From a bacterium (lineage in GTDB: Bacteria; SZUA-182; DTGQ01): DNA of 64,000 bases. Positions 9,815-30,031 of this stretch are shown here, piece after piece. A program made the position numbers and the translations under genes. Position 1 is the stretch's first letter. Each line of letters opens with the position of its first letter. Below the pieces are notes generated by a model. It had not been told where the DNA came from and ran no database searches. It was given only the letters and a program-made list of their open reading frames with translations. The stretch spans positions 3,508-67,507 of the forward strand of contig JAILZY010000008.1 of NCBI GenBank assembly GCA_023512255.1, read 5' to 3'.

Positions 9815-10325
9815 GCCTCTTATACCTCCGAAAGTTTATCGTTTTTTTGATTTTAAATTTTTACCCATTATCACAAAAAAATAAGGGTAAGGCACAAAAT
9901 CCGTAAGGGTCGCTCGAGGCTATTAGATTTCTAAGGGGTGATAAACCGGAAGATGCCTTTTCATCTATAGCATAGAGATATTTTTGCTGTCAAGGGTAAA
10001 AAGTCAGTCTAAATGAGGGGAGGAGAATAAAATCTCAAAAAGGCACAATAAAATCTCTAAGAGAGCGAAAAGTGCGGGGAGTGGGGGGAAAATGGTAAGA
10101 GTCGCTTGAGGTTAATTGAAAAATAGTTTTGAAAAGTCGGCCATCCTCTGTCTGTCTCCATTTCTTTTTTCCGAAGCATACTTGCCAAGATCTCGATAAA
10201 ATCAGAGGAAATATTTACTGTATTTTAACTGCTTTTTAACTTTATTTTATCTCATTTTTTACGCTTTTGCCTTTACCATTTGTCGCTGCTTTCAACTTTA
10301 TTCACAAGATTAGGAGGCTACCCCG

Positions 10326-18427: not shown

Positions 18428-19213
18428 CTATCTCTGGGGCTTTGTTGTCTGCTTTCGCAGCATGAGCAGCTCATCGTCCAACCCGTGGCGGAGAAGATCG
18501 AGTCTGGATGACGCAGCCACGAGGCTTTCGGCGTGGACCGGCTTGATCCGGAACGGGAAGAGGCTCGGGCTGTCGATCAGATCTTTCAGCGGAGCCGAAC
18601 AGCTGGCCCGGGCGTGGAGGGACGCTTCGGCCAGCCAGGCGATCAGTCGGGAATCCTCAACAGCCAGCGTTGTCCCGGCAGAGTAAATGCCCTTTGCGCC
18701 GCTCTCCTGAAGCACGCCCCAGTCGAGGTACGAACGCAGCACGCGGCGGGCTGCTCGGGAAACGGTCTCCCGCTCGCCGTATTGCTCGCGAACCCTGCGC
18801 TGGACATGAGCCGCGGCAGCGGAGCCCTGAAGCCTCAGAAGACGGCCGGTCTGAGTGGCTACACACGACCAGAACGGGTAGACGGCCATGACCATCCCCC
18901 AGTGGATGGCTAGGCGCAAGTTATGAGGACTGAGGACTGAGTACTGAGTAGAAAGAAAGGCAAGACCGTCGTTTCGCAACGGAATGAGATCCTCTGGTGT
19001 AGTTACCCAAATCTTGCGCATGATAGAGATAATTTTATTACGATTACATCCCTTCGCCTGGCCGCCTATGGAAACCTTGTCCTTTAGTAGCTCTTGCAAG
19101 GCATCATTGATCGCAGCCTTGTCATTCCCTGCCAAGACCAGGTTGGCTGTCTGCTCAAGCCATTCCAGACGCACCCGCTGACTGAATCCGATATGGTTTC
19201 TCCTGTATGTCAT
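18428..19213 (-). CDS. hypothetical protein; candidate BrxA-like terminal gene of the BREX-like cluster
   Basis: Last gene in the same orientation, downstream of pglZ, as expected for brxA in BREX type 3. I cannot verify the DUF1819 fold by eye. Contains an in-frame partial heptad repeat (LSTQYSVLSPHNL). Confidence 0.3.
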   Translation of the reverse strand: MTYRRNHIGFSQRVRLEWLEQTANLVLAGNDKAAINDALQELLKDKVSIGGQAKGCNRNKIISIMRKIWVTTPEDLIPLRNDGLAFLSTQYSVLSPHNLRLAIHWGMVMAVYPFWSCVATQTGRLLRLQGSAAAAHVQRRVREQYGERETVSRAARRVLRSYLDWGVLQESGAKGIYSAGTTLAVEDSRLIAWLAEASLHARASCSAPLKDLIDSPSLFPFRIKPVHAESLVAASSRLDLLRHGLDDELLMLRKQTTKPQR

Positions 19214-19228
19214 TCAGAATTCCTCTTA

Positions 19229-19337
19229 CGGGTTACGAGTTATGGGTTACGAGTTACGAGTCATTAAACTCACAACTCACAACTCACAACTCTCAACTCG
19301 TAACTCATCATTACCCAGTCCTCATCACTCATCACTT
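19229..19337. repeat. palindromic array of heptanucleotide units (GTGAGTT / ACGAGTT / GGGTTAC, then GTGATGA GTGATGA GGACTG) in the pglZ-brxA intergenic spacer
   Basis: Seen directly. About 14 heptad units; the two halves are approximate reverse complements. Confidence 0.7.
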
Positions 19338-21428
19338 CCCCACGCCTCGCATCTCGATATGTACCAGAGGGACGATGAGTTCCTCGACTGAAACGCCGCC
19401 ATGGCTCACGATGCGCTGCTTTTCCTGGACAAACGTCTGCCGAGCGGGGGCCAGCAGGGCGAGGTAGTCCTCCGGGAGACCAACGGTTCCCCATTCCATC
19501 GCGGCGGGAAAGCGTTCCTTCACCTTGGCGCGTAGGGCCGCGTCGGGATAGATGCGGACCCGTTCGCCGCGCAGGTCTGCCACAGCCCCTTCGGATGGAC
19601 GACCGCAGCCTTCCGCCTCGATGTTGCCATGATCAGAGGTCAAATAAACAAGGAAGCCCCGATCCAAGAGCAGATCGAGGAGTGTGTTCAGATACGGCTG
19701 CTTGGCCCACTGGCGCACCTGGTTGTGCATCCCGGCGGTGCCCATTTCCATCCCATGCATGATCCTGTCGACCTTGTCCACGACCAGCCCGACGACCCTT
19801 GCCTTGGTATGAGAAAGCGCTTCGGAAACGCTTTCCAGGCCGCCGTCGCCCAGACCCTTGAGGTAGACGACCTCGTTTGGTGCGAGGCCCTGATCTGCCC
19901 AGAACTGCGCCCAAAGTGCTGGTTCCTTGTCCGTGGTCTGGATGCTGTTCGGGAAAAAGATGGGAGCCTTGCCGGCAAAAGTTGCCTGGCGTGAGACTGA
20001 GGTAAGCGAAGGAATCCAGGCAAAGACCGCCTGCTCCCGGAATCGCAGTCCGGGCTGCTTTGCGGCAAGTGCTTCGCGGATCACCAGCCATTGGTCCAGG
20101 GCAAGGCCGTCGATCACCAACAAAGCGAGCTTTGTTGGTGATCGCAGTGATGAGTGATGAGGACCGGGTAGTGAGTTGGCCAAAAAGAGCGGGATATGAT
20201 GAACCATGGCCGGCGGATTTGGAGGCAACTGGATAAGTCCTGCATATCGCCTCTGTATCCAAGATAGAAATCGCTGATCGACCCTTCGTGTAAGTGCATC
20301 GATACGATCATTCTGTCTTTCACTCAGTCCCCAGTCCTCATTACTCATTACTTTCAATTCCGCCCATCCGCGGGCAAAGTGGAGCCAGTCCGTGTGCTTC
20401 GCGTCCTTGGCCGGGATGGATGCCTCTAGGCTGTCGATGAGCTTGGCCAGACGACGGGACCTGTCCTCTGTGGGAGCCGCTCTAACGCCGATGCCTACCC
20501 AGGTTTTGGACAGGGTTTCCGCATACTCGTGTGGGACTGGATGCAGCACACCCTCGACGAACAGGTTGTCGATGTAGACCCGGATGTCATGGTGGTCGAA
20601 GGGAAGTTCGACAGGTCCCTTGATGGATAGACCGTAGGGCTTCTCTTCCTCACGAACGACTGCCTGTGCCGTGCCCGGCACGGCAGACAGGCCTGCCTGT
20701 TCCGAGGCTTCGGCAGGCCTGCCGGACGCCCCTTTGGCTGCCTCACGGTCAAGAAAGATCGGCCAGCGCTCTTGGAGGAACGCGAAGAAGGCTTCCCTGT
20801 CCGCCACCAGTGTCTCAAGTGGCCATTCGTCGAAGATGTTAGTCTGGCGCAGAAGCTGGATGAACCGCTCGTCGAGGATAGCAGGGATGCGTTGTCCGCG
20901 GTAGTGACGGCGCAGGAGTACCCGCAGGAGGTCCGATGGCTGTTTGATCAGCTCGGGAGCGATTTCAAAGACGTGCCGGAGGACGAACTCCTTGGTGGCG
21001 TTGTCGCTAAGCTGGCCAGGTGCATGTCGGATCGAAGCCTGATACAAGGCATCGAGATCTCCTCTGTCCAGGGCGCTCACAACCGGGCAGCTTAGGTTCG
21101 GAAAGATTTCGCCGAGGTTGAAGGAGAGTTTGCGACCGGCCTGGAGTAGATCATAGGGTAACCCGCTGAGGTCGCTTGCTTGGGAGCGCAATACCACAAC
21201 GAGGTCCGTGTGCTCCCCGCGGTCCCAGCGGGAGCGAAACTTCGATTCATAGGCGTAGCGGAACGCGATACGGTCTTCGAACGGGATCAGCTCAAAGCCA
21301 CGCTCGCGGATGCCTTCGAGAATGCCTTCTTCGAGGAGCAGTCCGTCCGGATCGGCCACTAGGGTGAGTCGAGCGACCTTCGGAGTGAATTCCTTCAGGA
21401 TTTGATCGCGCCAGCTACTCATGGCCAC
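19332..21428 (-). CDS. pglZ: PglZ-domain protein (alkaline-phosphatase superfamily; BREX/Pgl core component)
   Basis: PglZ signature LALLVIDGLALDQW...SLTSVSR...TSDHGN, about 700 aa. Confidence 0.8.
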   Translation of the reverse strand: MAMSSWRDQILKEFTPKVARLTLVADPDGLLLEEGILEGIRERGFELIPFEDRIAFRYAYESKFRSRWDRGEHTDLVVVLRSQASDLSGLPYDLLQAGRKLSFNLGEIFPNLSCPVVSALDRGDLDALYQASIRHAPGQLSDNATKEFVLRHVFEIAPELIKQPSDLLRVLLRRHYRGQRIPAILDERFIQLLRQTNIFDEWPLETLVADREAFFAFLQERWPIFLDREAAKGASGRPAEASEQAGLSAVPGTAQAVVREEEKPYGLSIKGPVELPFDHHDIRVYIDNLFVEGVLHPVPHEYAETLSKTWVGIGVRAAPTEDRSRRLAKLIDSLEASIPAKDAKHTDWLHFARGWAELKVMSNEDWGLSERQNDRIDALTRRVDQRFLSWIQRRYAGLIQLPPNPPAMVHHIPLFLANSLPGPHHSSLRSPTKLALLVIDGLALDQWLVIREALAAKQPGLRFREQAVFAWIPSLTSVSRQATFAGKAPIFFPNSIQTTDKEPALWAQFWADQGLAPNEVVYLKGLGDGGLESVSEALSHTKARVVGLVVDKVDRIMHGMEMGTAGMHNQVRQWAKQPYLNTLLDLLLDRGFLVYLTSDHGNIEAEGCGRPSEGAVADLRGERVRIYPDAALRAKVKERFPAAMEWGTVGLPEDYLALLAPARQTFVQEKQRIVSHGGVSVEELIVPLVHIEMRGVGK

Positions 21429-24369
21429 CGCCCTCCACCCGAATCACAACCAGCGGCACCATGTCGGGATAGGTGTGAGCCTTCTGATCGAGCTGCTCAT
21501 GGAAGCTCCGCTCCTCTTGGGTCAGGAGGTTCAGGCGATAGTTGCGGACCTGGGGCAGGCCAATTCGCTCGATGGTTTTGCGGCGTGCGGCAAAGGCGTA
21601 GTCTGCCTTCTCACGCTCGCGTGCGATGCGGCCCCGATGCTCTTGCAGGAGCGCTTCGTAGATAGGTTTCCCGTGTTCCTCTGCGGCGCTTTGCAGCTTT
21701 GCTAAAGAGGCTTGGGAGACCTTGGCGTCAAGGACGGACCGGACCTTTATGTTTGCTGCGAGGAGCTGATCCCACACGTGTCTGGCCGTCGGCATATAGA
21801 CCATGCCGTTGTCGGCCAAAAAGAGAGGCATGATCCGCCTGCGGCGGGTCTCCGGTCCTGGGCCCAAGGTCACGGGGCCGTCCCACCGACTCGCGACCCG
21901 CGACCCGTTACTCACAATCGAGATTTGCCACAAGGACCAGATGCCCTGGACCTCCCCGGAGAGACCGGGGATTGATACGATAGGAACCGGCTGGCCCGGC
22001 GCAAAGCGGGGAAGTCGCATGGCCAGTTCGCGAATCCTAGGCTCTTCAAGGGTAAGATGCCGGGCGGTCGGAAGCCTCTCGGCTTCCTTGCCGGTGAAGA
22101 CTACATTCTCGTAGGTCTCACCGTCGGGCCAGGTGAGGTTCCAGCTCTGGCGTCTTTTCTCGGCCTGGCCGCCGTGCGCCTTCAGGTAGCTCACGGTCAT
22201 ACGCTCGATCCAATGGGGCAAGGGGTGAGTCAGCAGCCGCTGGGCTTCGCCAGGCTCCAGATCCTCGGTCGCGCCAAGTACCGATGCGGTCGTGCGCGCC
22301 TCGCGAGCCTGCTCCTGCAAGCGGGCAATCACGCTCTCCACGGATTCCTCCACCTTTTCGGGGTTGAGGATCGCCTCGACATACATCTCGTCGAACATGT
22401 GGCTCGCCTGGGCCGAGTCAAGGACGTCGCCGGTCTTGTCAATGCCGAACTCCTCGAAGATGACGGCGAGCTTCTGCTCCAGTACTTCAAGGACCCGATG
22501 CTCAACCGATCCTTCGAGGACCAAGTTAACCGCACGCACCGTATGAGCTTGGCCGATACGATCCACCCGACCAATCCGCTGTTCGAGTCGCATCGGGTTC
22601 CAGGGGATGTCGTAGTTGATCACCACGTGGCAGAACTGGAGGTTCAAACCCTCCCCGCCGGCGTCGGTGGAGATGAGAATCCGGACATCCTTGGCGAATG
22701 CCTCCTGGGCCCGCTTACGCTCTTCCATGTCCATAGAGCCATTCAGGCAGACGACTGAAAACCCGCGCTCTGTTAGGAACCAACGCAACATCTCTTGGGT
22801 GGGAACGAACTCGGTGAACACCAGTACCTTAAGCTCAGGGTCGCTCTCCTCGGCCTGGAGGCGGTAGAGCCAGTCTAGCAGTGCCTCGGCCTTGGCGTCT
22901 GGTCCGATCTGCTCGCAGCGAGCCGCGGCCTCCAAGAGCATCTTTACCTCGGCGCGCTCGTTCTTGAGCGCCTTGAGGCGGGTGCGAAGCAACACCTCGA
23001 TCTGCTCCTGGCCGTCCAAGTCAGCCCATTCCTCTTCGGAGTTGAGGGGGAACAGGGTCAGTTGTTCCTGAGGTGCGGCGAGCGCCTCGAGCCGCCTTTC
23101 AAGCGTAATGCGGATAGCTCTTGTGCTGGAGACCACAAGGCGCTGCATCAGGATCATCAGAAAGCCGATATAGCTGCGTTTCTCCCGCATGGCCTGGTTG
23201 TAGCCTTCGCGTACGTATTCTGTGACCGCCTCGTAGAGGAGCTGCTGATCGCGGTGCCGCTCTTTCCATGAGACCGGAGCAAGCTGTGTGCGCCGCGGCT
23301 TGAACAGCGGGTTTCCCTCTACGTCAATGGCGCGGCGCTTTTCGGTGCGGATGACATGCGGTTGGACTCGCTCGCGGGTGACGCTGCTCGTGTCCGGGAA
23401 TTCCTGGGTGTCGATAAGGGAAACGAGCCGATGAAAGGCGTCGGTCTTGCCCTGGTGCGGGGTCGCCGAAAGCAGCAGGAGATATGGCGCGGACTCGGCC
23501 AGCCCCTGGCCCAGTTTGAAGCGGGCCACCTGGTCGGTGCTGCCGCCCAGACGGTGCGCTTCGTCCACGATGACCAGGTCCCAGCCGGCGGAGATCAGGT
23601 CCTCGAACCGTTCGCGGGCCGCCGCGCCGCCGCTTCCCGCCGCAGGTTTGACGGAATCCATGGGAACCACAATCTGATCTAATATCCGAAAAGGATTCTG
23701 TGCGTCTCGGCGGAGTACTGAGGACTGAGTGCTGAGGACTAAGCGGTTTTCTTCATACTCAGTCCTTAGTCCTCGTGCCTCAGTCCTGTGGATTGCCGAG
23801 ATGCGCTTCAAGGTGCGGTAGTCTTCCGTAAGAACTTGATGGAACCGTTCATTGAAGTGCATTGCCATCTCGGCAATCCACTGCGTGACCAGCCCCTTTG
23901 GGGCGATGACCAGCGTCCGCTTGACCAGTCCGCGAAGCTTAAGTTCCCGCATAATGAGCCCAGCCTCGATGGTCTTGCCCAGGCCGACCTCGTCCGCCAG
24001 GAGATAGCGCACCCGGTCGCTGCTAATGGCGCGGGATAAAGCATGGATCTGGTGAGGAAGCGGAATGACGGAGGACTCAATGGGTGCGAGCAGGACGTCC
24101 TGTGTCAGTGCATCTGCTACCCGCGCGGCCGCAGCAATGTAGGCGATATGGTCCGCCGAACCGGTACCTGCACTATCCAGTGGTTTAAGTCTGGAAGCCG
24201 CCGGGATGCGGACCACCGAGTCGCTCCCGGGCAGCCAGACATGGCAGGTCGTCTCGCCCCAGAGCGTCTGGACTTCGATGACCTGACAAAGCTGCCCGTG
24301 GTCCGGGGAATACAACCACGAATGAACACGAATGGACTCAAATAAGTTCATAGGACAAGTCTCTCCCAT
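21415..24369 (-). CDS. SNF2-family superfamily-2 helicase (BrxHII-like)
   Basis: Motif I LADEVGLGKTIEAGL; DEAH box IVDEAHRL; C-terminal helicase domain; 984 aa. Confidence 0.8.
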   Translation of the reverse strand: MGETCPMNLFESIRVHSWLYSPDHGQLCQVIEVQTLWGETTCHVWLPGSDSVVRIPAASRLKPLDSAGTGSADHIAYIAAAARVADALTQDVLLAPIESSVIPLPHQIHALSRAISSDRVRYLLADEVGLGKTIEAGLIMRELKLRGLVKRTLVIAPKGLVTQWIAEMAMHFNERFHQVLTEDYRTLKRISAIHRTEARGLRTEYEENRLVLSTQSSVLRRDAQNPFRILDQIVVPMDSVKPAAGSGGAAARERFEDLISAGWDLVIVDEAHRLGGSTDQVARFKLGQGLAESAPYLLLLSATPHQGKTDAFHRLVSLIDTQEFPDTSSVTRERVQPHVIRTEKRRAIDVEGNPLFKPRRTQLAPVSWKERHRDQQLLYEAVTEYVREGYNQAMREKRSYIGFLMILMQRLVVSSTRAIRITLERRLEALAAPQEQLTLFPLNSEEEWADLDGQEQIEVLLRTRLKALKNERAEVKMLLEAAARCEQIGPDAKAEALLDWLYRLQAEESDPELKVLVFTEFVPTQEMLRWFLTERGFSVVCLNGSMDMEERKRAQEAFAKDVRILISTDAGGEGLNLQFCHVVINYDIPWNPMRLEQRIGRVDRIGQAHTVRAVNLVLEGSVEHRVLEVLEQKLAVIFEEFGIDKTGDVLDSAQASHMFDEMYVEAILNPEKVEESVESVIARLQEQAREARTTASVLGATEDLEPGEAQRLLTHPLPHWIERMTVSYLKAHGGQAEKRRQSWNLTWPDGETYENVVFTGKEAERLPTARHLTLEEPRIRELAMRLPRFAPGQPVPIVSIPGLSGEVQGIWSLWQISIVSNGSRVASRWDGPVTLGPGPETRRRRIMPLFLADNGMVYMPTARHVWDQLLAANIKVRSVLDAKVSQASLAKLQSAAEEHGKPIYEALLQEHRGRIAREREKADYAFAARRKTIERIGLPQVRNYRLNLLTQEERSFHEQLDQKAHTYPDMVPLVVIRVEGGGHE
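23714..23790. repeat. ~77 bp imperfect-palindrome repeat element built from GAGGACT-type heptads, in-frame inside the helicase gene
   Basis: The 3' 30 nt are identical (one mismatch) to the copy at 28617-28696. Translated in-frame as RTEARGLRTEYEENRLVLSTQSSVL. Confidence 0.7.
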
Positions 24370-24731
24370 TCGAGTTTTGGCTTTTTGAAATTGAGGATAA
24401 GGCCGACTTTGAGCTGGGTAATCTTCAGGTAGTTGAGCATCTGGCCACGTTCAACATCCGTAATACGGTCAATCGTCTTGGCGTCGACCACGATCTTATC
24501 AAAGGCAATCAAATCGGGAATGTAATCGCCCACCTTGACACCTTTGTAAATTACATCGAAGCGCGGCTGCTGCTTGTAAGGGATTCCTCTCAGGCCAAAT
24601 TCAACAACGAGTGCATTTTCATACGGCTTTTCCAGCAACCCATGCCCAAGCGTATTGAACACCTCCATGGCGCAGCCAACGATCTGGAATACCTCATCTT
24701 TGAACAGTAATTTGTGTTCCTTCGTGTCCAT
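24348..24731 (-). CDS. GxxExxY-family small protein (PD-(D/E)xK nuclease-like fold)
   Basis: 127 aa. VGCAMEVFNTLG matches the GxxExxY motif, with downstream D/E-x-K-type residues. Overlaps the helicase start by 22 nt. Confidence 0.65.
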   Translation of the reverse strand: MDTKEHKLLFKDEVFQIVGCAMEVFNTLGHGLLEKPYENALVVEFGLRGIPYKQQPRFDVIYKGVKVGDYIPDLIAFDKIVVDAKTIDRITDVERGQMLNYLKITQLKVGLILNFKKPKLEWERLVL

Positions 24732-24740
24732 TCGTGGTTC

Positions 24741-25667
24741 TCACTCCTCCCCCGCTCGAGTAACCGCCTGGTCGTACCACATGAGGAGCTTGGGGTCTTT
24801 CTGGAGGACGTTCTCAGGAATTTTGCGGGCCACAGCGATGATGGTGGCATAGTCGCGCTCCTGCCATGCCTTCTTGAATCCGGCCCGGACCGCCTCAAGG
24901 CGGAAGACCTTCAGTTTCCGCTGGCTGGAAGCCAGCGCCACACTGGAAGCCAGCGCCACATATTCTTGAAATTCCTTGAGCAGGGACCGCTCGCGCAGCT
25001 TCTCCAGGTCGATGGCCTTGTTCGGGTCAGGCACATACCAGCGGTCCTTGGCTTCGCGAAGCAGTCTCGGGTCCTGAGTCTCGAGTCCCGAGTCTTCTGA
25101 TCCGTCACCCGCGACCCGCGACTCGCGACTGATCAACTCCCGCCATGTAGCACTCTGCTTCATCCACGAGACGATTTGTTTTGGAATAGGCCCCTTGCCG
25201 TCATAGCGCAAGAAGTTCTGCTCCAGCAGCTCGGAAAGCTCCAGCAGCCTCTCGTGCTTATGCCAGCCGCTGATCTCCTTGAGGAATTGGGGGTGCAGTT
25301 CCTGGAAGGTCTGTGGCTTCCGTGTGAGCTGCTGTTTGAGCCACTCGATGGCTGAGGCCTCATCCGTGACAAAGAGCGGAAGCTGCACAAAGAGCGGAAG
25401 CTGCACAAAGAGCGGAAGCTGCAGCAACTTTCGGACAGCCATCCGCTTTTTGTCATACTCAGCCACCTGCTCGGGCAGGAAGTACATCCCGTCCCGTTCT
25501 GGGAAACGCTGGGCCAGCCCAGCGTAAAACTCCCCAGCGGATATCGGAACCATCACCCCACGCTGCACATGAAAGGCCACCATGCGGTCAAAGAGTAGGT
25601 AATTCTGGCGCTCGGCGATGATTTCCAAGGTGGAGCCTGCATCTTGCAGGCTATCTTCTTGCTGCAC
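24741..25667 (-). CDS. hypothetical protein, possibly the frameshifted C-terminal portion of the PglX-like methyltransferase
   Basis: Follows methyltransferase piece 2 after 10 nt in another frame. The three pieces sum to about 1255 aa (PglX-like size). Contains two in-frame 18-bp tandem repeat arrays. Confidence 0.35.
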   Translation of the reverse strand: MQQEDSLQDAGSTLEIIAERQNYLLFDRMVAFHVQRGVMVPISAGEFYAGLAQRFPERDGMYFLPEQVAEYDKKRMAVRKLLQLPLFVQLPLFVQLPLFVTDEASAIEWLKQQLTRKPQTFQELHPQFLKEISGWHKHERLLELSELLEQNFLRYDGKGPIPKQIVSWMKQSATWRELISRESRVAGDGSEDSGLETQDPRLLREAKDRWYVPDPNKAIDLEKLRERSLLKEFQEYVALASSVALASSQRKLKVFRLEAVRAGFKKAWQERDYATIIAVARKIPENVLQKDPKLLMWYDQAVTRAGEE

Positions 25668-25677
25668 CGGCTGACTT

Positions 25678-26910
25678 TTATTTTTGTTTAGCCTGCTGGA
25701 AGCAGGCTCTACTTTGCTTAGCCTGCTGGAAGCAGAACTCAGCCTGCTGGAAGCAGGCTCTCACAAATACCGGCAGTTGCTTCAGGTGAGTGCGGACAAA
25801 GTCCCAAACGCCTTGCTCCGTCCCCGCTTCGAGCTTGAAGCGTTCCTCTAGGCCACCGTTTGGCTTGTAGCAGGAGATGATGAGGTCCTGTTTGACCGCG
25901 GATGCTGAAGTTACCTGCTTGAAAGAACCTTGCTGCTTGTCCAGCGTGCGCACATCAGCAATGACAAAGCACGCGGCCTGCAGGGCCTCCTGGATCGCGT
26001 TCCAGACCGCGTTCTTGGAGTTGTGAAATTCCACCGTCATCCAGTGGCCCGGCTTGAGCACCCGGTAGTATTCTTTGAAACATTCGGTCATGAGCTTCTG
26101 GTATTCTGGCAGCCCTTTGCCCTGGGCGGTGTTTTCGATGGCCTCAGGCTTGTTGTTGGTAAAAACCTTAAGCCACGCCTCCCAGAGGAAATTCAGCTCA
26201 GAATACATCAGGTTGCCACCAAAGGGTGGGTCGGTGAAGATGTAGTCGATGGATTCGCCTGGTATTGGGAATACTGAAGAATCACAACAACCAATGGATG
26301 CCACCTTGATCTCGCCAAACCGTGGAGCTTCATGTTTTATGAGTCTCTGCAATTTACCGGTAAGAATGTAACCGGAAGACACTTCTACCTGTTGCGAACC
26401 GACGTATAACGTGCCACTAAGATACCGGTTTACTTGCGAAAAATGAGTAGGGACATACCGCGATATTTTCGCGAATCCCAGCGCCGCATACTGTATGAAA
26501 AACAAGCTCAATTTGTGCCGTGCCTTAAATGCCTTATCATACATCCCCCCCAGCACCCACAGATTCCGTCTGGTATAGAAATGGTGCACATGGGTGATGC
26601 CGTGGGAAACTTTAGGTTGCTCCGTGTTATAGCCCTCCGGCATACGATCCGTCGGAAACCAATATGGTATTTCCATCTGCTCAATTTTTTCGATAAGTGC
26701 TAGATCGAAGGCGTCGGGCGTCTTTTCGAATCGCTGCTTTCCCACGCTATAGTTGATGAGCACCGGCACTTGTTTGGCTTGCCTGATGGTCTGATTAATA
26801 GCCTTATCAAATTTGGTAACCCAAGCCCGTTCCATTAGGCGTTTGGTGAGCAGGGTGCCGCAGTGGGGGCAGGGAAATTTGTCATGGATTTTGCCCGCTT
26901 CCTTATTCAC
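25678..26910 (-). CDS. DNA methyltransferase fragment (amino-methyltransferase catalytic motif DPPF), piece 2; in-frame continuation of 26920..28533 across a TAG
   Basis: Catalytic motif IV IFTDPPFGGN. Begins with a CPHCG half zinc ribbon. Starts at GTG three codons after the TAG of the upstream piece, in the same frame. Confidence 0.7.
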   Translation of the reverse strand: MNKEAGKIHDKFPCPHCGTLLTKRLMERAWVTKFDKAINQTIRQAKQVPVLINYSVGKQRFEKTPDAFDLALIEKIEQMEIPYWFPTDRMPEGYNTEQPKVSHGITHVHHFYTRRNLWVLGGMYDKAFKARHKLSLFFIQYAALGFAKISRYVPTHFSQVNRYLSGTLYVGSQQVEVSSGYILTGKLQRLIKHEAPRFGEIKVASIGCCDSSVFPIPGESIDYIFTDPPFGGNLMYSELNFLWEAWLKVFTNNKPEAIENTAQGKGLPEYQKLMTECFKEYYRVLKPGHWMTVEFHNSKNAVWNAIQEALQAACFVIADVRTLDKQQGSFKQVTSASAVKQDLIISCYKPNGGLEERFKLEAGTEQGVWDFVRTHLKQLPVFVRACFQQAEFCFQQAKQSRACFQQAKQK

Positions 26911-26919
26911 GGCAGCCTC

Positions 26920-28533
26920 CTAGAAGACTACCTCTTGGGTGCAGTTTGGGCAGACAAAGACATCGGACCAGACGGTATAGTTGATTTTTCCCAGTGGAGC
27001 CGGCTTCCAGCCGGCTGAAACCAATTCTTTTGCTACATACCGCCATTCATAATCCAGCGGCCGCCTTACCAGGCCAGCTTTGACCGGGTTATGGTTTACA
27101 TAAGCCAGTGTGGCCATCAGTTCTTTGCTATCGCGGATGATTCGATCATAGCTTTCCGTCTGCCATACTGTAGTCCCAGTTTTTTGCTCCAATTTATTCA
27201 CTTCATTGGCTGAATAGCTTTTAACACTGTGAAGAATCTCAGATAGATCCCAGGGTGCGTCTTTTTGTTTTTCGAGAGGTTTGGCCACGATATGAACATG
27301 ATCTGGCATAACCACCGCAGTGAACACCTTCCAGCGCTTTTGATCCCAGAATAAAATCGCATCCAGAACAATTTTCCTGGCTGGTTCACTGAGAACGCGC
27401 AGGTCGTGTGTTCTGAATGTAACAAAATAAGTGGCCCCGGGAACCTGGATGTGGGGTAGGTTATCTTTTCTGAAGGTTGATTCGTTTGTCTGAAATGGAT
27501 TGCAGGGCTCGAAGTTTATTGCTGATATAAGCCTGCTGGAAGCAGGCTCTACATGCAGGGTCTCATACATCCAGCCGCATTCGGCTTCCACTTCCTTCAG
27601 GATGCGCCTGGCTTCACGCTCAAAGGCCACGACATCCACCGGGGTGTTGTAGTTATAGGCGATGAAGGTGGCAGCAGGCGACAGGTCATTCAAGACAGCC
27701 CGCCGCGCGCCAAGTTTCGAAAATGGTTTCCAGATGGTTTTGCCGCTCTCTTCGGTTTCCTTCTGATAGATCACCCCGTCCTTATCCACCCGGTAGCCCA
27801 GCGCCTCGACCGCTGCTTTATCCCCGCACATCTGCGCTGCTACGCCGGTCATCCCTGTCCCGCAGAAGCCGTCGAAAACGATATCCCCAGGCTCGGTGTA
27901 ATGCAGGATGTAGCGCATTACGGCCTTGTGCGGCACCTTAGTGTGGTAGGAGTGGGCATTGTAGATCGGATCGTTCTTGCCCTCGCTCACATCCGCGGCA
28001 AAGGGCTCGCGGTGATAGGGTTTATCCACAAAGGCACACGAAGCCCCACCAAGAGATTTCTCTTGTTCGTACATCTTCGTGTCCTTCGTGGATTCCCAAT
28101 ACCTTACCATGTCGGCGATGAAGGGATTGGGGCAGGCGGTGTAGTAGGGTGGGTCGGATAGTGCCAGGATGTCCTCGTCGCTGCCGTGCGGGAAGCCGAC
28201 CTCGTCCTTGTAAAGGCTGAGGAGGTCTCGGGGCACGGGTCGTGAGTCGCGGGTCGATGATGCAGCGTGGGCGATGCGTCCTGCCAGGTAGCGGATTTGC
28301 TCGTCATTGCCCAGCAGCCAATGCTCGAGGGATTTCAGCCGCTGGTAAGTATCTTCGAGACTCGTAAAGGGGACGGAAAGCTTTTCTCGCATCTCCTGCA
28401 AGCCTGCTCGCAAAATGCCGAGAAAAGCTTTCTGCCGCTCTTCGTCGTTCGGGAACGTTAGCCCCAAGCAGGTCACGGGTTTATGGTGTTTGATTTCTGG
28501 TTTCTCGTTGTCGAATAGGATGTCCATGTTCAT
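26920..28533 (-). CDS. DNA methyltransferase N-terminal module fused in-frame to an IS200/IS605-type Y1 HUH transposase domain, piece 1
   Basis: Methyltransferase motifs SDPPYY (aa 127-132) and FDGFCGTGMTG (aa 220-230). Y1 transposase domain at aa ~362-495 with HUH motif PDHVHIV and catalytic-Tyr motif VWQTESYDRIIRD. C-terminal CPNC half zinc ribbon, then TAG. Confidence 0.75.
   Translation of the reverse strand: MNMDILFDNEKPEIKHHKPVTCLGLTFPNDEERQKAFLGILRAGLQEMREKLSVPFTSLEDTYQRLKSLEHWLLGNDEQIRYLAGRIAHAASSTRDSRPVPRDLLSLYKDEVGFPHGSDEDILALSDPPYYTACPNPFIADMVRYWESTKDTKMYEQEKSLGGASCAFVDKPYHREPFAADVSEGKNDPIYNAHSYHTKVPHKAVMRYILHYTEPGDIVFDGFCGTGMTGVAAQMCGDKAAVEALGYRVDKDGVIYQKETEESGKTIWKPFSKLGARRAVLNDLSPAATFIAYNYNTPVDVVAFEREARRILKEVEAECGWMYETLHVEPASSRLISAINFEPCNPFQTNESTFRKDNLPHIQVPGATYFVTFRTHDLRVLSEPARKIVLDAILFWDQKRWKVFTAVVMPDHVHIVAKPLEKQKDAPWDLSEILHSVKSYSANEVNKLEQKTGTTVWQTESYDRIIRDSKELMATLAYVNHNPVKAGLVRRPLDYEWRYVAKELVSAGWKPAPLGKINYTVWSDVFVCPNCTQEVVF
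27049..27450 (-). other. embedded IS200/IS605-family Y1 (HUH) transposase-like domain within the methyltransferase ORF
   Basis: GATYFVTFRT...PDHVHIV...TVWQTESYDRIIRD...HNPVKAGLV carries all hallmark motifs of TnpA(IS200)/RAYT. Confidence 0.7.
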
Positions 28534-29072
28534 TCCGTCCCTGGCGTAACAATTAAAAAATCGTGAACTGGATATCGTCTGTATTCTGGGTGATCCGGCG
28601 TCGCATAGACCAAATAGAGTGATGAGGACTGAGTGATTAGTGCTGAGTCTTCGGACGTCTCTGACTCAGTCCTCAGTCCTCGTGCCTCAGTCCTGATTTT
28701 GCCGCTCCAAGCCGCGACCACCGTCTTGTTCCGCGAGAGCCTCTGCAGAAGCCGCAACGGGTCCTGCTTGAGAGAGACATCGAAGAGGACCTCGATGTTG
28801 TCCAGCAAAACCACATCGGCTGCGGATGCGCCCACGATATCTGCAAGGAGGCGGGGCAACTGCAAGGCCCGCTGGCGCTCGGTGAGGTCGAGCATTCGCC
28901 GGGAAAGCTCGAGGTTGACGTTGACCAGAGGAGCCGCCGTGCGCTCATGGACATCCTGGAGAGCGGCGGTCTTGCCCGCACCAGCCGGGGCCACCAACAT
29001 GACAAGCCGGTGGTACAGCTCGGCAGCCTGGCCAATTCTCTTTATGACTCTATCGGCGAGTGGCTCCGCCAT
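28530..29072 (-). CDS. P-loop NTPase, BrxF-like (BREX type 3)
   Basis: Walker A LVAPAGAGKTAAL. Small size and first position in the cluster fit BrxF. The likely start is MAEPLADR at 29072; the track ORF extends to 29132. The C-terminus carries an in-frame repeat-element insertion. Confidence 0.5.
   Translation of the reverse strand: MAEPLADRVIKRIGQAAELYHRLVMLVAPAGAGKTAALQDVHERTAAPLVNVNLELSRRMLDLTERQRALQLPRLLADIVGASAADVVLLDNIEVLFDVSLKQDPLRLLQRLSRNKTVVAAWSGKIRTEARGLRTESETSEDSALITQSSSLYLVYATPDHPEYRRYPVHDFLIVTPGTE
28617..28696. repeat. second copy of the same palindromic heptad element, in-frame near the C-terminus of the BrxF-like gene
   Basis: Shares GATGAGGACTGAGTG...ACTCAGTCCTCAGTCCTCGTGCCTCAGTCCTG with the copy at 23714-23790. 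Encodes IRTEARGLRTESETSEDSALITQSSSL. Confidence 0.7.
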
Positions 29073-29097
29073 TAGCGATCTCTCTTCCCGAACCAAG

Positions 29098-29241
29098 CTA
29101 ATTCGCCCGCGTTTTTTCAAGCCAATGGTCAATGGCTCCTTTCTGGAAACGCCAGTGTCGGCCGATTCTCTGGGAGAGGATCTTGGCTTCCCGAACGAGC
29201 TTGTAGAGTGTTGACTTCGGCATTTTCAGGTAGGCGGCCAA
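29098..29241 (-). CDS. small excisionase/AlpA-family HTH DNA-binding protein
   Basis: Found by manual translation; not in the ORF track because under 60 aa. LSIEELAAYLKMPKSTLYKLVREAKILSQRIGRHWRFQKGAIDHWLE matches the excisionase-family HTH consensus. The start codon is uncertain: TTG at 29241 or ATG at 29223. Confidence 0.5.
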   Translation of the reverse strand: MAAYLKMPKSTLYKLVREAKILSQRIGRHWRFQKGAIDHWLEKTRAN

Positions 29242-30031
29242 CTCTTCGATGCTCAGTACATCACCTGGTTTTTTTCATCCATCAAGCGCATCTTTCTGGT
29301 CTTAACAAGCTCATCTTTCTGGTCTTAAGGCAAAGTTCGACCCAGCATGCCTCATATCAAGCTCATAATTTAAAGTTATTGGTAGTTGATGTCAAGCGCT
29401 TTTGAAGCGCAGAGGGGCCTAAACCCAACATTTGTGACACCAAGGGCACTAAGAGTTTAACCCTCTTCACCAAGATGTTCCCCATCTTTAAATTTGAAGG
29501 ACGATTTACTACCTCCTCCCTTAAACTTTAATAAATTATGAGAACATGGTTAATATTTAGTTTAACACTTTTTTCCGATAAAGTCTATTTTTCAAGGCAG
29601 ACATAAAAAGGGGGAGGAGCCGGAAAGAGGAGGGCTAGGCTTTGTGGTCATTACCTTTTTTGTTCATTACTCTTCCGGCTCTCTCCCAAGGGGAAGTAGG
29701 GAAGCGCTCCGTGCAGGGGAAAAGTTATTTGGGCAAGGGACGATCCTTGTGATCGTCCCATTTCAAGCGCACCCTGCAGGGGAAAAAAGAGCTATCTTTG
29801 ATCCTCATTTAAGAGGATCTTTGAGATGAGCGAGCTAATGTTATCTTATCCGAAATTATCATCCCCTCGGAATCCCCTGATGGTCCCGCACTGTGTGGGT
29901 GGACTGTGGCTTACTGCTTCCGGTGTCTGCTCTTAGGCCTAATATTCCTCCCTACCTAGAGATCCCGAGGGGTAGCATCTGAAATAACTATCGCTGCTCA
30001 TTATTCGGATTCTAAAAAATCCTCAACCCGG

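What the first reader, a model, noticed from the sequence alone, without database searches (positions are those of the whole stretch)
26920..28533. Complete Y1 HUH (IS200/IS605-type) transposase domain embedded in-frame inside the defense-island DNA methyltransferase
The 537-aa ORF begins as an amino-methyltransferase, with DPPYY at aa 127-132 and the SAM-binding motif FDGFCGTGMTG at aa 220-230. It then continues, without any stop, through an intact ~135-aa Y1 transposase domain (nt ~27049-27450). That domain has all catalytic hallmarks: the HUH motif PDHVHIV and the Tyr motif VWQTESYDRIIRD. The ORF ends in a zinc ribbon. Inference: a ssDNA-nicking HUH nuclease module fused to the modification enzyme of a BREX-like system (a system class with no known nuclease) would be a new architecture and could supply a cleavage activity. 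The alternative is a domesticated or decaying IS200 insertion that happens to be in frame.
Basis: partly seen in the sequence, partly recalled or inferred. Interest (0 to 1): 0.85.

Follow-up and report, generated by a model that had tools for sequence, protein, structure and literature searches.

The report
Transposase cassette translated inside BREX methyltransferase
A small selfish-DNA unit (a RAYT tyrosine transposase with its two flanking hairpin repeats) sits in frame inside the BREX methyltransferase gene and is read as part of that protein; relatives live the same way inside other methyltransferases and essential housekeeping genes, and I found no paper describing this.

Summary
ORF 26920..28533(-) carries a complete Y1/HUH domain in frame inside the methyltransferase of a type 3 BREX operon.

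It is not a designed nuclease–methylase fusion. The 559-nt insert (26994-27552) is a REPtron: a RAYT-type Y1 domain bounded by two inverted REPs, each a GTRG head plus an 8-bp stem and 3-nt loop. It has no start or stop codon of its own. More REPs of this family lie in other loops of the same gene and nowhere else in the 64 kb.

About 20 PglXI homologues from several phyla carry a cassette at the same site. Five have intact 1150-1285-aa ORFs. Most orthologues lack it.

- The Y1 body is under purifying selection (dN/dS 0.07).
- The REPs are conserved at synonymous sites.
- The Y1 tree conflicts with the host tree.

Close RAYT relatives are embedded in frame in ValRS, LeuRS, AlaRS, ThrRS, PriA, RecG, DnaK, PurH, GcvP, RdgB, RarA and DUF1156 methylases.

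Best reading: a selfish or commensal element translated as a passenger domain of addictive or essential proteins. The window's own PglXI is broken by a TAG (Trp to stop) and a frameshift in a REP cluster.

The parts
26994..27552 (-). Whole in-frame REPtron cassette (559 nt): left REP, linker, Y1 domain, right REP. It replaces a short surface loop of PglXI between ...WMYETLH and GKINYTVW...
   Evidence: Inverted repeat I5. Junctions compared with uninterrupted orthologues.
27530..27552 (-). Left REP: GTAG head plus AGCCTGCT-TCC-AGCAGGCT (8-bp stem, 3-nt loop). Translated as VEPASSR.
   Evidence: Folds at -8.8 kcal/mol, z -3.3. Near-invariant at the nucleotide level in 10 loci.
27463..27528 (-). 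22-codon linker between the left REP and the Y1 core. It holds no in-frame ATG, GTG or TTG, so the Y1 has no start codon of its own.
   Evidence: Linker length differs among homologues but is always a multiple of 3.
27022..27462 (-). RAYT-type Y1/HUH core (NLPH...PDHVH...WQTESYDRIIRD...NPVKAGL). HUH motif at 27286-27306, Tyr motif at 27130-27168.
   Evidence: Pfam Y1_Tnp. PDB 4ER8 TnpArep E 1.5e-3. Model of homologue P0002: pLDDT 92-98, Foldseek top hit 4ER8 at E 6e-7. dN/dS 0.07 against L105.
26994..27016 (-). Right REP in inverted orientation: AGCCGGCT-GGA-AGCCGGCT plus CCAC (reverse complement GTGG-AGCCGGCT-TCC-AGCCGGCT). Translated as AGWKPAP.
   Evidence: Same-amino-acid codon identity 0.87 against 0.47 in adjacent host codons. 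Compensatory stem change in L108.
26920..26922 (-). In-frame TAG replacing a conserved Trp (TGG) inside the zinc ribbon. It splits PglXI piece 1 from piece 2.
   Evidence: Homologues read VVFWEAAVDK.
26920..28533 (-). PglXI piece 1: N-terminal alpha+beta element, SAM-binding motif I, the embedded REPtron, and the first CxxC of the zinc ribbon.
   Evidence: PADLOC PglXI E 6e-120.
25678..26910 (-). PglXI piece 2: second CxxC, TRD region and catalytic DPPF motif IV.
   Evidence: PADLOC PglXI E 4e-173.
24741..25667 (-). PglXI piece 3: C-terminal domains, in the +1 frame relative to piece 2.
   Evidence: PADLOC PglXI E 4e-128. Frame worked out.
25634..25759 (-). BIME-like REP cluster (three direct REPs plus one inverted) replacing a linker loop. 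It holds the TAA stop and frameshift between pieces 2 and 3.
   Evidence: Orthologue P0008 reads ...LPVFVSKNGQVEVIAVRQNF... across this point.
24914..24960 (-). REP variant (GTGG-CGCTGGCT-TCC-AGCCAGCG) with a partial duplication, in frame in piece 3 (VALASSVALASS).
18428..29132 (-). Host operon, BREX type 3: BrxF 28530..29132, PglXI, BrxHII-type helicase 21415..24369, PglZ 19332..21428, BrxA 18428..19213. No BrxC.
   Evidence: PADLOC: BrxF 5e-71, BrxH E 0 (1503 bits), PglZ 2e-299, BrxA 1e-99.

Best explanation
The Y1 segment is an intragenic, in-frame REPtron: a RAYT (REP-associated tyrosine transposase) with its two inverted REP hairpins. It lodges in a permissive loop of the BREX type 3 methyltransferase PglXI, at the junction between the SAM-binding half and the zinc-ribbon/TRD insert. 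Shown: it has lost its own start and stop codons, so it can only be made by read-through translation as an internal domain of PglXI. The REP DNA is translated as linker peptides (VEPASSRL and AGWKPAP), which a structure model of homologue P0002 predicts to be disordered. Selection keeps the frame open, keeps the Y1 protein intact, and keeps the hairpins intact at the DNA level. Inferred: the Y1 domain binds and cleaves single-stranded REP hairpins via the GTRG head, forming a Tyr-5'-phosphate intermediate as in TnpArep. It seeds further REPs preferentially in cis into other loops of its own gene. The cassette moves or is exchanged between PglXI alleles at the same site, by homing or by recombination through the conserved flanks. 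It persists because the host gene is addictive: a methylase of a restriction-like system cannot be lost or disrupted. The same logic would explain why sister RAYTs sit in frame in aminoacyl-tRNA synthetases, PriA, RecG, DnaK and PurH. It is therefore a passenger of BREX rather than its nuclease. In this window the host gene has additionally suffered a nonsense mutation and a REP-cluster frameshift.
For: REPtron anatomy. The ends are inverted 23-nt units, GTAG/GTGG plus a perfect 8-bp stem and 3-nt loop. This matches the published definition: rayt genes are always flanked by two inverted REPs with a GT(A/G)G head (PMC2817692). Group 3 REPs have an 8-bp palindrome and 3-nt loop (PMC8266576). The nearest structure is TnpArep 4ER8, by sequence and by fold of the P0002 model.

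No own start codon.

Recurrence. 19 of the top 120 homologues carry a Y1 at the identical junction H|VEPASSRL...AGWKPAPL|GK. Intact 1151-1285-aa fusion ORFs occur in L005, L088, L092, L101 and L105, all in BREX type 3 context.

Selection. Y1 dN/dS is 0.07 at dS 1.34. HUH and Tyr are conserved in 13 of 14 sequences. REP codon identity is 0.82-0.87 against 0.47-0.57 in flanking host codons, and L108 shows a compensatory stem change. At least eight different linker lengths all preserve the frame.

Mobility or exchange. The B-type Y1 clade has 100% bootstrap in the Y1 tree and 0% in the host N-terminal tree. Embedded Y1s at this site are not monophyletic.

Local REP seeding. All 9 REP matches in the 64 kb lie inside PglXI. 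All REPs in L001-L005 lie inside the gene. 14 of 26 exact 20-mer hits in metagenomes fall in PglXI homologues.

Not BREX-specific. Related RAYTs are in frame in ValRS, LeuRS, AlaRS, ThrRS, GcvP, PriA, RecG, DnaK, PurH, RarA, RdgB and DUF1156 methylases. 53 of the best 150 representative clusters are 350 aa or longer.
Against: No activity, transcript or protein data exist; translation as a fusion is inferred from open frames only. Relative to today's empty alleles, six loop residues (e.g. SDGKTR) are missing, so it is not a clean peel-and-paste insertion. Published work describes REPtrons as unable to self-propagate (PMC3733652), so mobility of the whole cassette is uncertain. The tree conflict could reflect recombination between alleles rather than transposition. 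My trees are NJ on short alignments with weak host-side resolution. Left-REP conservation is partly ascertainment-biased, because 8 loci were fetched with the exact left-REP 20-mer; the right REP and loci L001-L005 are unbiased. Long-term purifying selection on Y1 would also fit a host-beneficial role.
Confidence: 0.68

Rival explanations
1. Exapted functional fusion. The Y1/HUH domain has been recruited by PglXI. It would act as a ssDNA-binding or nicking module that contributes to BREX restriction or to loading the methylase on replicating phage DNA.
For: Strong purifying selection on Y1. Intact full-length fusion ORFs in five loci inside complete-looking BREX type 3 operons. Catalytic residues retained. 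A confidently folded, separate domain on flexible linkers in the P0002 model. RAYTs elsewhere are regarded as domesticated (PMC8266576 abstract).
Against: It is absent from most PglXI orthologues, including the nearest one, P0008 at 78% identity. A 2026 domain-level survey of BREX does not list it. Conserved transposon ends are not needed for a protein-only role. Its phylogeny is incongruent with the host's. The same cassette type sits in housekeeping enzymes with no defence role. One homologue (P0007) has Cys in place of the catalytic Tyr.
Confidence: 0.12
2. A REP/RAYT-driven on/off or specificity switch. Gain, loss or copy-number change of REPs, or excision of the cassette, within PglXI toggles the reading frame. 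That would give phase-variable BREX methylation.
For: REP clusters sit at recurrent loops. In three independent loci (window, L001, L003) they coincide with a stop or frameshift at the same inter-domain linker. Tandem partial REP duplications occur in the window. IS200/IS605-type Y1 enzymes excise precisely (established knowledge of the family).
Against: No pair of near-identical alleles differing only by REP number or cassette presence was found. The window's TAG is a plain point mutation unrelated to REPs. Frameshifts may simply be decay or assembly error.
Confidence: 0.08
3. Neutral relic. A single ancient insertion of an IS200-like gene happened to be in frame, is carried along passively, and is decaying.
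For: The window's PglXI is itself disrupted (TAG, frameshift) and BrxC is missing. Several homologues are truncated, frameshifted or hit by other IS elements.
Against: dN/dS is 0.07 with synonymous sites saturated. Multiple independent indels all keep the frame. Hairpins are conserved at synonymous positions with compensatory changes. At least two or three distinct RAYT lineages occupy the site. The ends are REP-type (inverted, GTRG head), not IS200/IS605-type.
Confidence: 0.05

Closest known systems
REPtron: RAYT/TnpArep gene flanked by inverted REPs (E. coli YafM, PDB 4ER8; S. maltophilia group 3)
   Same: Y1/HUH fold closest to 4ER8. Two flanking REPs in inverted orientation. REP built as a GT(A/G)G head plus palindrome, here an 8-bp stem and 3-nt loop as in group 3. 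Further REP copies and BIME-like clusters lie nearby.
   Different: Known REPtrons are free-standing, extragenic genes with their own start and stop, and their REPs are dispersed genome-wide between genes. Here the cassette has neither start nor stop, lies inside an ORF and is translated with it. In the window its REPs are confined to the host gene.
Intragenic REPs and Rickettsia palindromic elements (RPE) inserted in frame in protein genes (Di Nocera 2013; Ogata 2000, the latter from my own knowledge)
   Same: Short palindromic repeats inserted in frame in loops of known proteins, often replication, repair or tRNA-synthetase genes. This includes GTGG-headed REPs in Opitutus terrae.
   Different: Those reports concern solo REPs, dimers or clusters encoding about 10-80 aa. 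An entire transposase domain carried in frame between the REPs was not described there.
IS200/IS605 insertion sequences (IS608, ISDra2)
   Same: Y1 HUH transposase fold (Foldseek hits 2XM3, 2VJV, 2F4F). Hairpin ends preceded by a guide-like tetranucleotide.
   Different: IS200/IS605 ends are two different subterminal hairpins on the same strand, and the tnpA gene is independent. Here the ends are inverted copies of one REP type. No TnpB is present.
Inteins with homing endonucleases, and IStrons (an analogy of niche, not homology)
   Same: Selfish elements that live inside conserved, essential genes without destroying them. The host range is strikingly similar: aaRS, replication and repair helicases, DnaK-type proteins.
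   Different: Inteins splice at the protein level and IStrons at the RNA level. This cassette has no Hint motifs (the insert starts V-E-P and ends P-A-P-L|G) and no ribozyme (Rfam negative). It presumably stays in the mature protein.
BREX type 3 PglXI/BrxXI methyltransferase
   Same: The host protein matches PglXI over all three pieces. The operon has BrxF, BrxHII, PglZ and BrxA.
   Different: The canonical protein is about 930 aa with no Y1 domain. The window copy is interrupted and BrxC is absent.

Membership tests
RAYT / REPtron | Y1 HUH endonuclease domain with an HUH motif and a catalytic Tyr, closer to TnpArep than to IS200 TnpA | tested here: met
   Pfam Y1_Tnp 27.1 bits. PDB sequence hit only to 4ER8. 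Foldseek top hit 4ER8 at E 6e-7, ahead of ISDra2 and IS608. H93, H95 and Y143 conserved.
RAYT / REPtron | [quoted passage not shown] | tested here: met
   Arms 27523-27552 and 26994-27023 are 80% complementary. The same layout is seen in 12 homologous loci.
RAYT / REPtron | REP built as a GT(A/G)G head followed by a palindrome | tested here: met
   GTAG-AGCCTGCT-TCC-AGCAGGCT and GTGG-AGCCGGCT-TCC-AGCCGGCT. Definition taken from PMC2817692 and PMC8266576.
RAYT / REPtron | Cognate REPs present in many copies, typically extragenic and genome-wide | tested here: inconclusive
   9 matches in the window, all inside PglXI. The genome outside the 64 kb is not available. In metagenomes the exact 20-mer also occurs in a PKS, a membrane protein and intergenic DNA.
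RAYT / REPtron | Free-standing gene with its own start and stop codon | tested here: not met
   No in-frame ATG, GTG or TTG between the left REP and the Y1 core, and no stop before the right REP. The same holds in intact 1150-1285-aa fusion ORFs.
RAYT / REPtron | Cleaves and rejoins single-stranded REP DNA | not testable with these tools
   Needs the cleavage/strand-transfer assay of PMC8266576.
IS200/IS605 insertion sequence | Distinct left and right subterminal hairpins on the same strand; an autonomous tnpA (with or without tnpB); multicopy whole element | tested here: not met
   The ends are inverted copies of one REP type. There is no tnpB and no own start. There is one copy in the window.
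BREX type 3 | PglXI (PF01555-type methylase) with BrxF, BrxC, BrxHII, PglZ and BrxA in one operon | tested here: inconclusive
   PglXI, BrxF, BrxH, PglZ and BrxA all match strongly. BrxC is absent between BrxF and PglXI, and PglXI is interrupted.
Intein | Hint fold; N-terminal Cys/Ser; C-terminal His-Asn followed by Cys/Ser/Thr | tested here: not met
   The insert begins VEPASS and ends PAPL|G. Pfam finds only the MTase and Y1_Tnp.
Self-splicing intron / IStron | Group I or II ribozyme flanking or containing the transposase | tested here: not met
   An Rfam E-value scan of 24000-29500 gives no relevant hit.

The most novel reading that the evidence does not exclude
ORF-embedded REPtrons may be a distinct, widespread lifestyle of RAYT elements. 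The cassettes have shed their own start and stop, are translated as internal passenger domains of addictive or essential host proteins (BREX and DUF1156 methylases, aaRS, PriA, RecG, DnaK, PurH and others), use REP-encoded peptides as linkers, and home to or are exchanged at specific loops. This would be an intein-like ecological niche reached without any splicing, and a source of new HUH-domain fusions.
Probability: 0.45. Interest if true: 0.85.

Novelty: new variant of a known kind. Interest (0 to 1): 0.72.

Why it matters
RAYTs and REPs are textbook extragenic elements. How they persist and spread is still debated, and REPtrons are thought unable to self-propagate. A lineage that lives inside open reading frames and is translated with the host protein would add a third strategy for colonising essential genes harmlessly, alongside protein splicing (inteins) and RNA splicing (IStrons, introns). 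It would also give a natural set of HUH-tagged enzymes. It explains many 'unexpectedly long' Y1 proteins that earlier surveys discarded. For defence-system biology, it warns that a nuclease-like domain inside a BREX methylase need not be part of the defence mechanism. It also shows that BREX type 3 and related DUF1156 methylase genes are preferred harbours for such elements.

Tried and rejected
- **Source contig.** Exact-sequence look-ups of three window proteins found nothing, so the organism is unidentified.
- **Hairpin in other RAYT loci.** The specific hairpin (up to 3 mismatches) is absent from all 79 other RAYT loci fetched from genomes. It is therefore not a general feature of this RAYT clade. 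Those loci carry related but different REPs.
- **Intein or intron hypotheses.** Rejected: no Hint motifs and no Rfam hit.
- **IS200/IS605 membership.** Rejected on end architecture.
- **Literature.** Searches on RAYT + in-frame + methyltransferase, REPtron, IS200 + inserted in-frame, HUH + intein-like, and BREX PglXI found no description of embedded RAYTs.
- **Y1-only word-index search.** It missed the PglXI-embedded homologues. The exhaustive representative search recovered them.
- **Perfect-stem hairpin scan of other-host loci.** It was too strict, found ends in only some loci, and crashed on the last one.
- **Homologous insertion site in DUF1156 methylases.** This is only suggested: the BLASTP alignment runs about 15 residues into the host helix, and P0371 shows a different site.
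Full report

Yes. ORF 26920..28533(-) is 537 aa. Pfam finds N6_N4_Mtase at aa 188-239 (E 3e-10) and Y1_Tnp at aa 397-481 (27.1 bits against a 23-bit cut-off).

Three details need correcting.
- The catalytic motif IV is DPPF in the next ORF, 25678..26910. It aligns to Pfam profile positions 1-106. The N-terminal DPPYY is not motif IV.
- The methyltransferase continues through a third ORF, 24741..25667. PADLOC matches all three pieces to PglXI.
- The 537-aa ORF ends at a TAG that replaces a conserved Trp in the middle of a CxxC..CxxC zinc ribbon.

**2. The host system**

PADLOC assigns the operon on the minus strand as follows.

| Gene | Window coordinates | PADLOC result |
|---|---|---|
| BrxF | 28530..29132 | E 5e-71 |
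| PglXI | three pieces, 24741..28533 | E 6e-120, 4e-173, 4e-128 |
| BrxH helicase | 21415..24369 | 1503 bits |
| PglZ | 19332..21428 | E 2e-299 |
| BrxA | 18428..19213 | E 1e-99 |

This is BREX type 3, but without BrxC. The island is 55-63% GC against roughly 40-52% in the flanks.

**3. Anatomy of the insert**

The Y1 segment is bracketed by 30-nt inverted repeats at 27523-27552 and 26994-27023.
- Read on the coding strand, the left end is GTAG-AGCCTGCT-TCC-AGCAGGCT.
- The right end is AGCCGGCT-GGA-AGCCGGCT-CCAC, the reverse complement of GTGG-AGCCGGCT-TCC-AGCCGGCT.
- Each folds as an 8-bp stem with a 3-nt loop (-8.7 to -9.9 kcal/mol, z about -3).

This is the published REP architecture.
- The group 3 REP of S. 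maltophilia has an 8-bp perfect palindrome and a 3-nt loop (Corneloup 2021, PMC8266576).

The left-versus-right stem difference (T·A against G·C) is itself compensated.

The hairpin motif occurs 9 times in the 64 kb against 0.06 expected, and every copy lies inside PglXI.
- A BIME-like cluster of three direct REPs and one inverted REP sits at 25634-25759. It contains the TAA and frameshift between pieces 2 and 3.
- A variant with a partial duplication sits at 24914-24960.

Between the left REP and the first conserved Y1 motif there is no in-frame ATG, GTG or TTG. There is also no stop before the right REP. The Y1 can only be translated as part of PglXI.

The closest solved relative is TnpArep, PDB 4ER8.
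- By sequence: E 1.5e-3, the only PDB hit.
- By fold: in an AlphaFold model of homologue P0002, the Y1 block has pLDDT 92-98 and the REP-encoded linkers fall below 50. The top Foldseek hit is 4ER8 at E 6e-7, ahead of ISDra2, IS608 and IS200.
- Rfam finds no ribozyme.
- The junctions lack intein signatures.

**4. It recurs**

Of the 120 best homologues of the ORF, 19 carry a Y1 at the identical junction ...WMYETLH|VEPASSRL...AGWKPAPL|GKINYTVW.... They come from a Desulfobacteraceae MAG, 'Deltaproteobacteria TL4', Omnitrophica, Rubrobacteraceae and unbinned metagenomes. One more, P0030, carries a different RAYT at another site. JGI already auto-annotates one homologue as 'DNA modification methylase/REP element-mobilizing transposase RayT'.

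The other roughly 100 homologues lack the insert. Most are about 930 aa, for example P0069 from Treponema sp. J25, and read ...ETLH-SDGKTR-GKINYT... at the site. They include the nearest orthologue, P0008, at 78% identity.

With DNA in hand for 12 distinct loci:
- Five have uninterrupted fusion ORFs of 1151-1285 aa running to the conserved C-terminus: L005, L088, L092, L101 and L105.
- These loci sit in BREX type 3 neighbourhoods.

**5. Selection**

- Y1 body: window against L105 gives dN 0.094, dS 1.34 and a ratio of 0.07. This is similar to the host N-terminal half (0.03-0.09). All other pairs are saturated at synonymous sites.
- Catalytic residues: HUH and the catalytic Tyr are conserved in 13 of 14 aligned cassettes. 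P0007 has Cys in place of Tyr.
- Hairpins: despite that saturation, the REPs are nearly invariant at the nucleotide level. Among same-amino-acid codon pairs, identity is 0.82 (left REP) and 0.87 (right REP) against 0.57 and 0.47 in the adjacent host codons.
- Stem compensation: L108 carries a compensatory stem change, GCTGGCT..AGCCAGC.
- Caveat: 8 loci were fetched with the exact left-REP 20-mer. The right REP and loci L001-L005 are free of that bias.
- Frame: linker lengths differ among homologues (at least eight lengths) yet always preserve the frame. My inference is that several independent indels were filtered for frame.
- His codon: the codon before the left REP is CAT in all filled alleles but CAC in the empty allele I could read. 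L094 and L110 are the same sequence. This is consistent with a conserved T preceding GTRG, as in many published REPs.

**6. History**

- In an NJ tree of the Y1 body, the 'B-type' cassettes {L003, L101, L107} group with 100% bootstrap. That bipartition has 0% support in the tree of the host N-terminal half, where L101 is 85-88% identical to hosts carrying A-type cassettes.
- In a wider Y1 tree, the cassettes occupying this site are not monophyletic (0% bootstrap). The A-type clade has 90% support. The C-type cassettes (P0011, P0016) fall among free-standing RAYTs.

Cassettes have therefore been exchanged or acquired more than once at one site. I cannot separate homing from allelic recombination. 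The absence of six loop residues relative to empty alleles argues against a simple clean insertion.

**7. Where else is the hairpin?**

- The exact 20-mer GAGCCTGCTTCCAGCAGGCT occurs in 26 metagenome contigs. Fourteen are PglXI homologues. The rest include in-frame copies in a polyketide synthase and a membrane protein, plus intergenic sites.
- None of 79 other RAYT loci from genomes carries it.
- Solo REPs recur at the same PglXI loops in different lineages, for example after LINYT(V) in P0089, P0013, P0012, P0005 and L094.

**8. The wider phenomenon**

Screening the 80 genome loci of RAYT relatives for stop-free frames showed that about 20 are embedded in long ORFs. Pfam identifies the hosts:
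- ValRS, LeuRS, AlaRS and ThrRS
- GcvP, PriA, PurH, RarA/MgsA and Ham1/RdgB
- DUF1156 methylases

Most come from Planctomycetota and Verrucomicrobiota MAGs. Where I could detect the ends, they are again inverted hairpin repeats, GTGG-headed in two loci. L059 and L019 have GTGG-(G/A)-ACCGGCT-TCC-AGCCGGT. L052 has GTACC-GCAGCCG....

An exhaustive phmmer search of 1.84 billion representative proteins gave 9183 hits at E up to 1e-3. Among the best 150, 53 are 350 aa or longer and 30 are 600 aa or longer. Of the 19 long ones I annotated, 17 had identifiable hosts: ValRS (6), AlaRS (2), LeuRS, PriA, RecG (3), DnaK/HSP70 and PurH (3). The other two had no Pfam host match, but their sequences look like DUF1156-type methylases.

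The property therefore belongs to the element, not to BREX.

**9. Literature**

- In-frame solo REPs are known, from Rickettsia RPEs and from O. terrae, often in replication, repair and aaRS genes (Di Nocera 2013, PMC3733652).
- A 2026 domain-level survey of BREX never uses the words HUH, transposase, RayT or IS200, including where it describes the PglXI/BrxXI architecture.
- I found no paper describing a whole RAYT translated inside a host ORF. The library lacks most subscription journals.

**10. Verdict**

The best-supported explanation is an intragenic, in-frame REPtron maintained by selection as a passenger domain of an addictive gene. It is one example of a broader and apparently undescribed lifestyle of RAYT elements.

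The window's own copy sits in a PglXI gene broken by a nonsense codon and a REP-cluster frameshift, in an operon lacking BrxC. This particular BREX locus is probably not functional, unless those breaks are assembly errors.

Noticed in passing
window 24314-24739 (ORF 24348..24731, minus strand): A PDDEXK_3 / GxxExxY nuclease-family gene (Pfam E 4e-36) is wedged between PglXI and the helicase and overlaps the helicase start. It is bracketed by its own 30-nt inverted repeats (24314-24343 and 24710-24739, 87% complementary). It looks like another small mobile unit.
   Followed up: partly
window 28026-28090 (PglXI N-terminal region); also protein P0008: An in-frame palindromic insert (STKDTKMYEQEKSLGGASCAFV) is related to the inverted repeats flanking the PDDEXK_3 gene (I12). 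The nearest orthologue, P0008, has the same kind of insert in the very loop where the window has the Y1 cassette.
   Followed up: partly
window 28617-28697 (BrxF), 23710-23790 (helicase), 20146-20352 (PglZ): A third palindromic family (ACTCAGTCCTCAGTCC.../...GGACTGAGGACTGAG) is inserted in frame in three other BREX genes. It adds peptides such as RTEARGLRTE...LITQSSS. The PglZ copy has 145 nt between its arms. It is found nowhere else in the 64 kb.
   Followed up: partly
window 25369-25423: A perfect 18-nt tandem triplication (ACAAAGAGCGGAAGCTGCA ×3) lies inside PglXI piece 3. It encodes LQLPLFV three times.
   Followed up: no
window 28530-29300: BrxF is directly followed by PglXI (ATGA overlap). 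The BrxC/PglY ATPase expected between them in type 3 BREX is missing, and nothing BrxC-like lies upstream.
   Followed up: partly
L021:4879-8352 (Deltaproteobacteria MAG QMMV01000008.1), aa 229-295: A DUF1156 methylase carries a GIY-YIG nuclease domain in frame (Pfam E 4e-15) in addition to an in-frame RAYT. That is two different selfish-type nuclease domains inside one methylase ORF.
   Followed up: no
L038, L035, L027, L032, L034, L052, L019, L039, L022, L051, L056, L045, L059, L020, L067; proteins P0276, P0318, P0331, P0307: RAYT domains are embedded in frame in ValRS, LeuRS, AlaRS, ThrRS, GcvP, PriA, PurH, RarA, RdgB, DnaK and RecG, mostly in Planctomycetota and Verrucomicrobiota. Where the ends were read, they are flanked by REP-encoded peptides such as GGTGFQPV / HRLEAGAT.
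   Followed up: partly
L089:658 and L097:5904; L087:607 and 1774: The same 20-nt REP occurs in frame inside a polyketide synthase (…GKVEPASSRLCND…), and twice inside a large membrane protein (KPAGSRL).
   Followed up: no
protein P0030 (746 aa): A different RAYT lineage, nearest to the Prochlorothrix RAYT, is inserted in frame at another PglXI site (after AQWEKEKK). It is flanked by GQAFRPA / GRLESLP hairpin peptides.
   Followed up: partly
L004:8829-9864: In this homologue the PglXI::Y1 gene is additionally split by a DDE_3 (IS630-like) insertion sequence. The MTase resumes at 9981.
   Followed up: no
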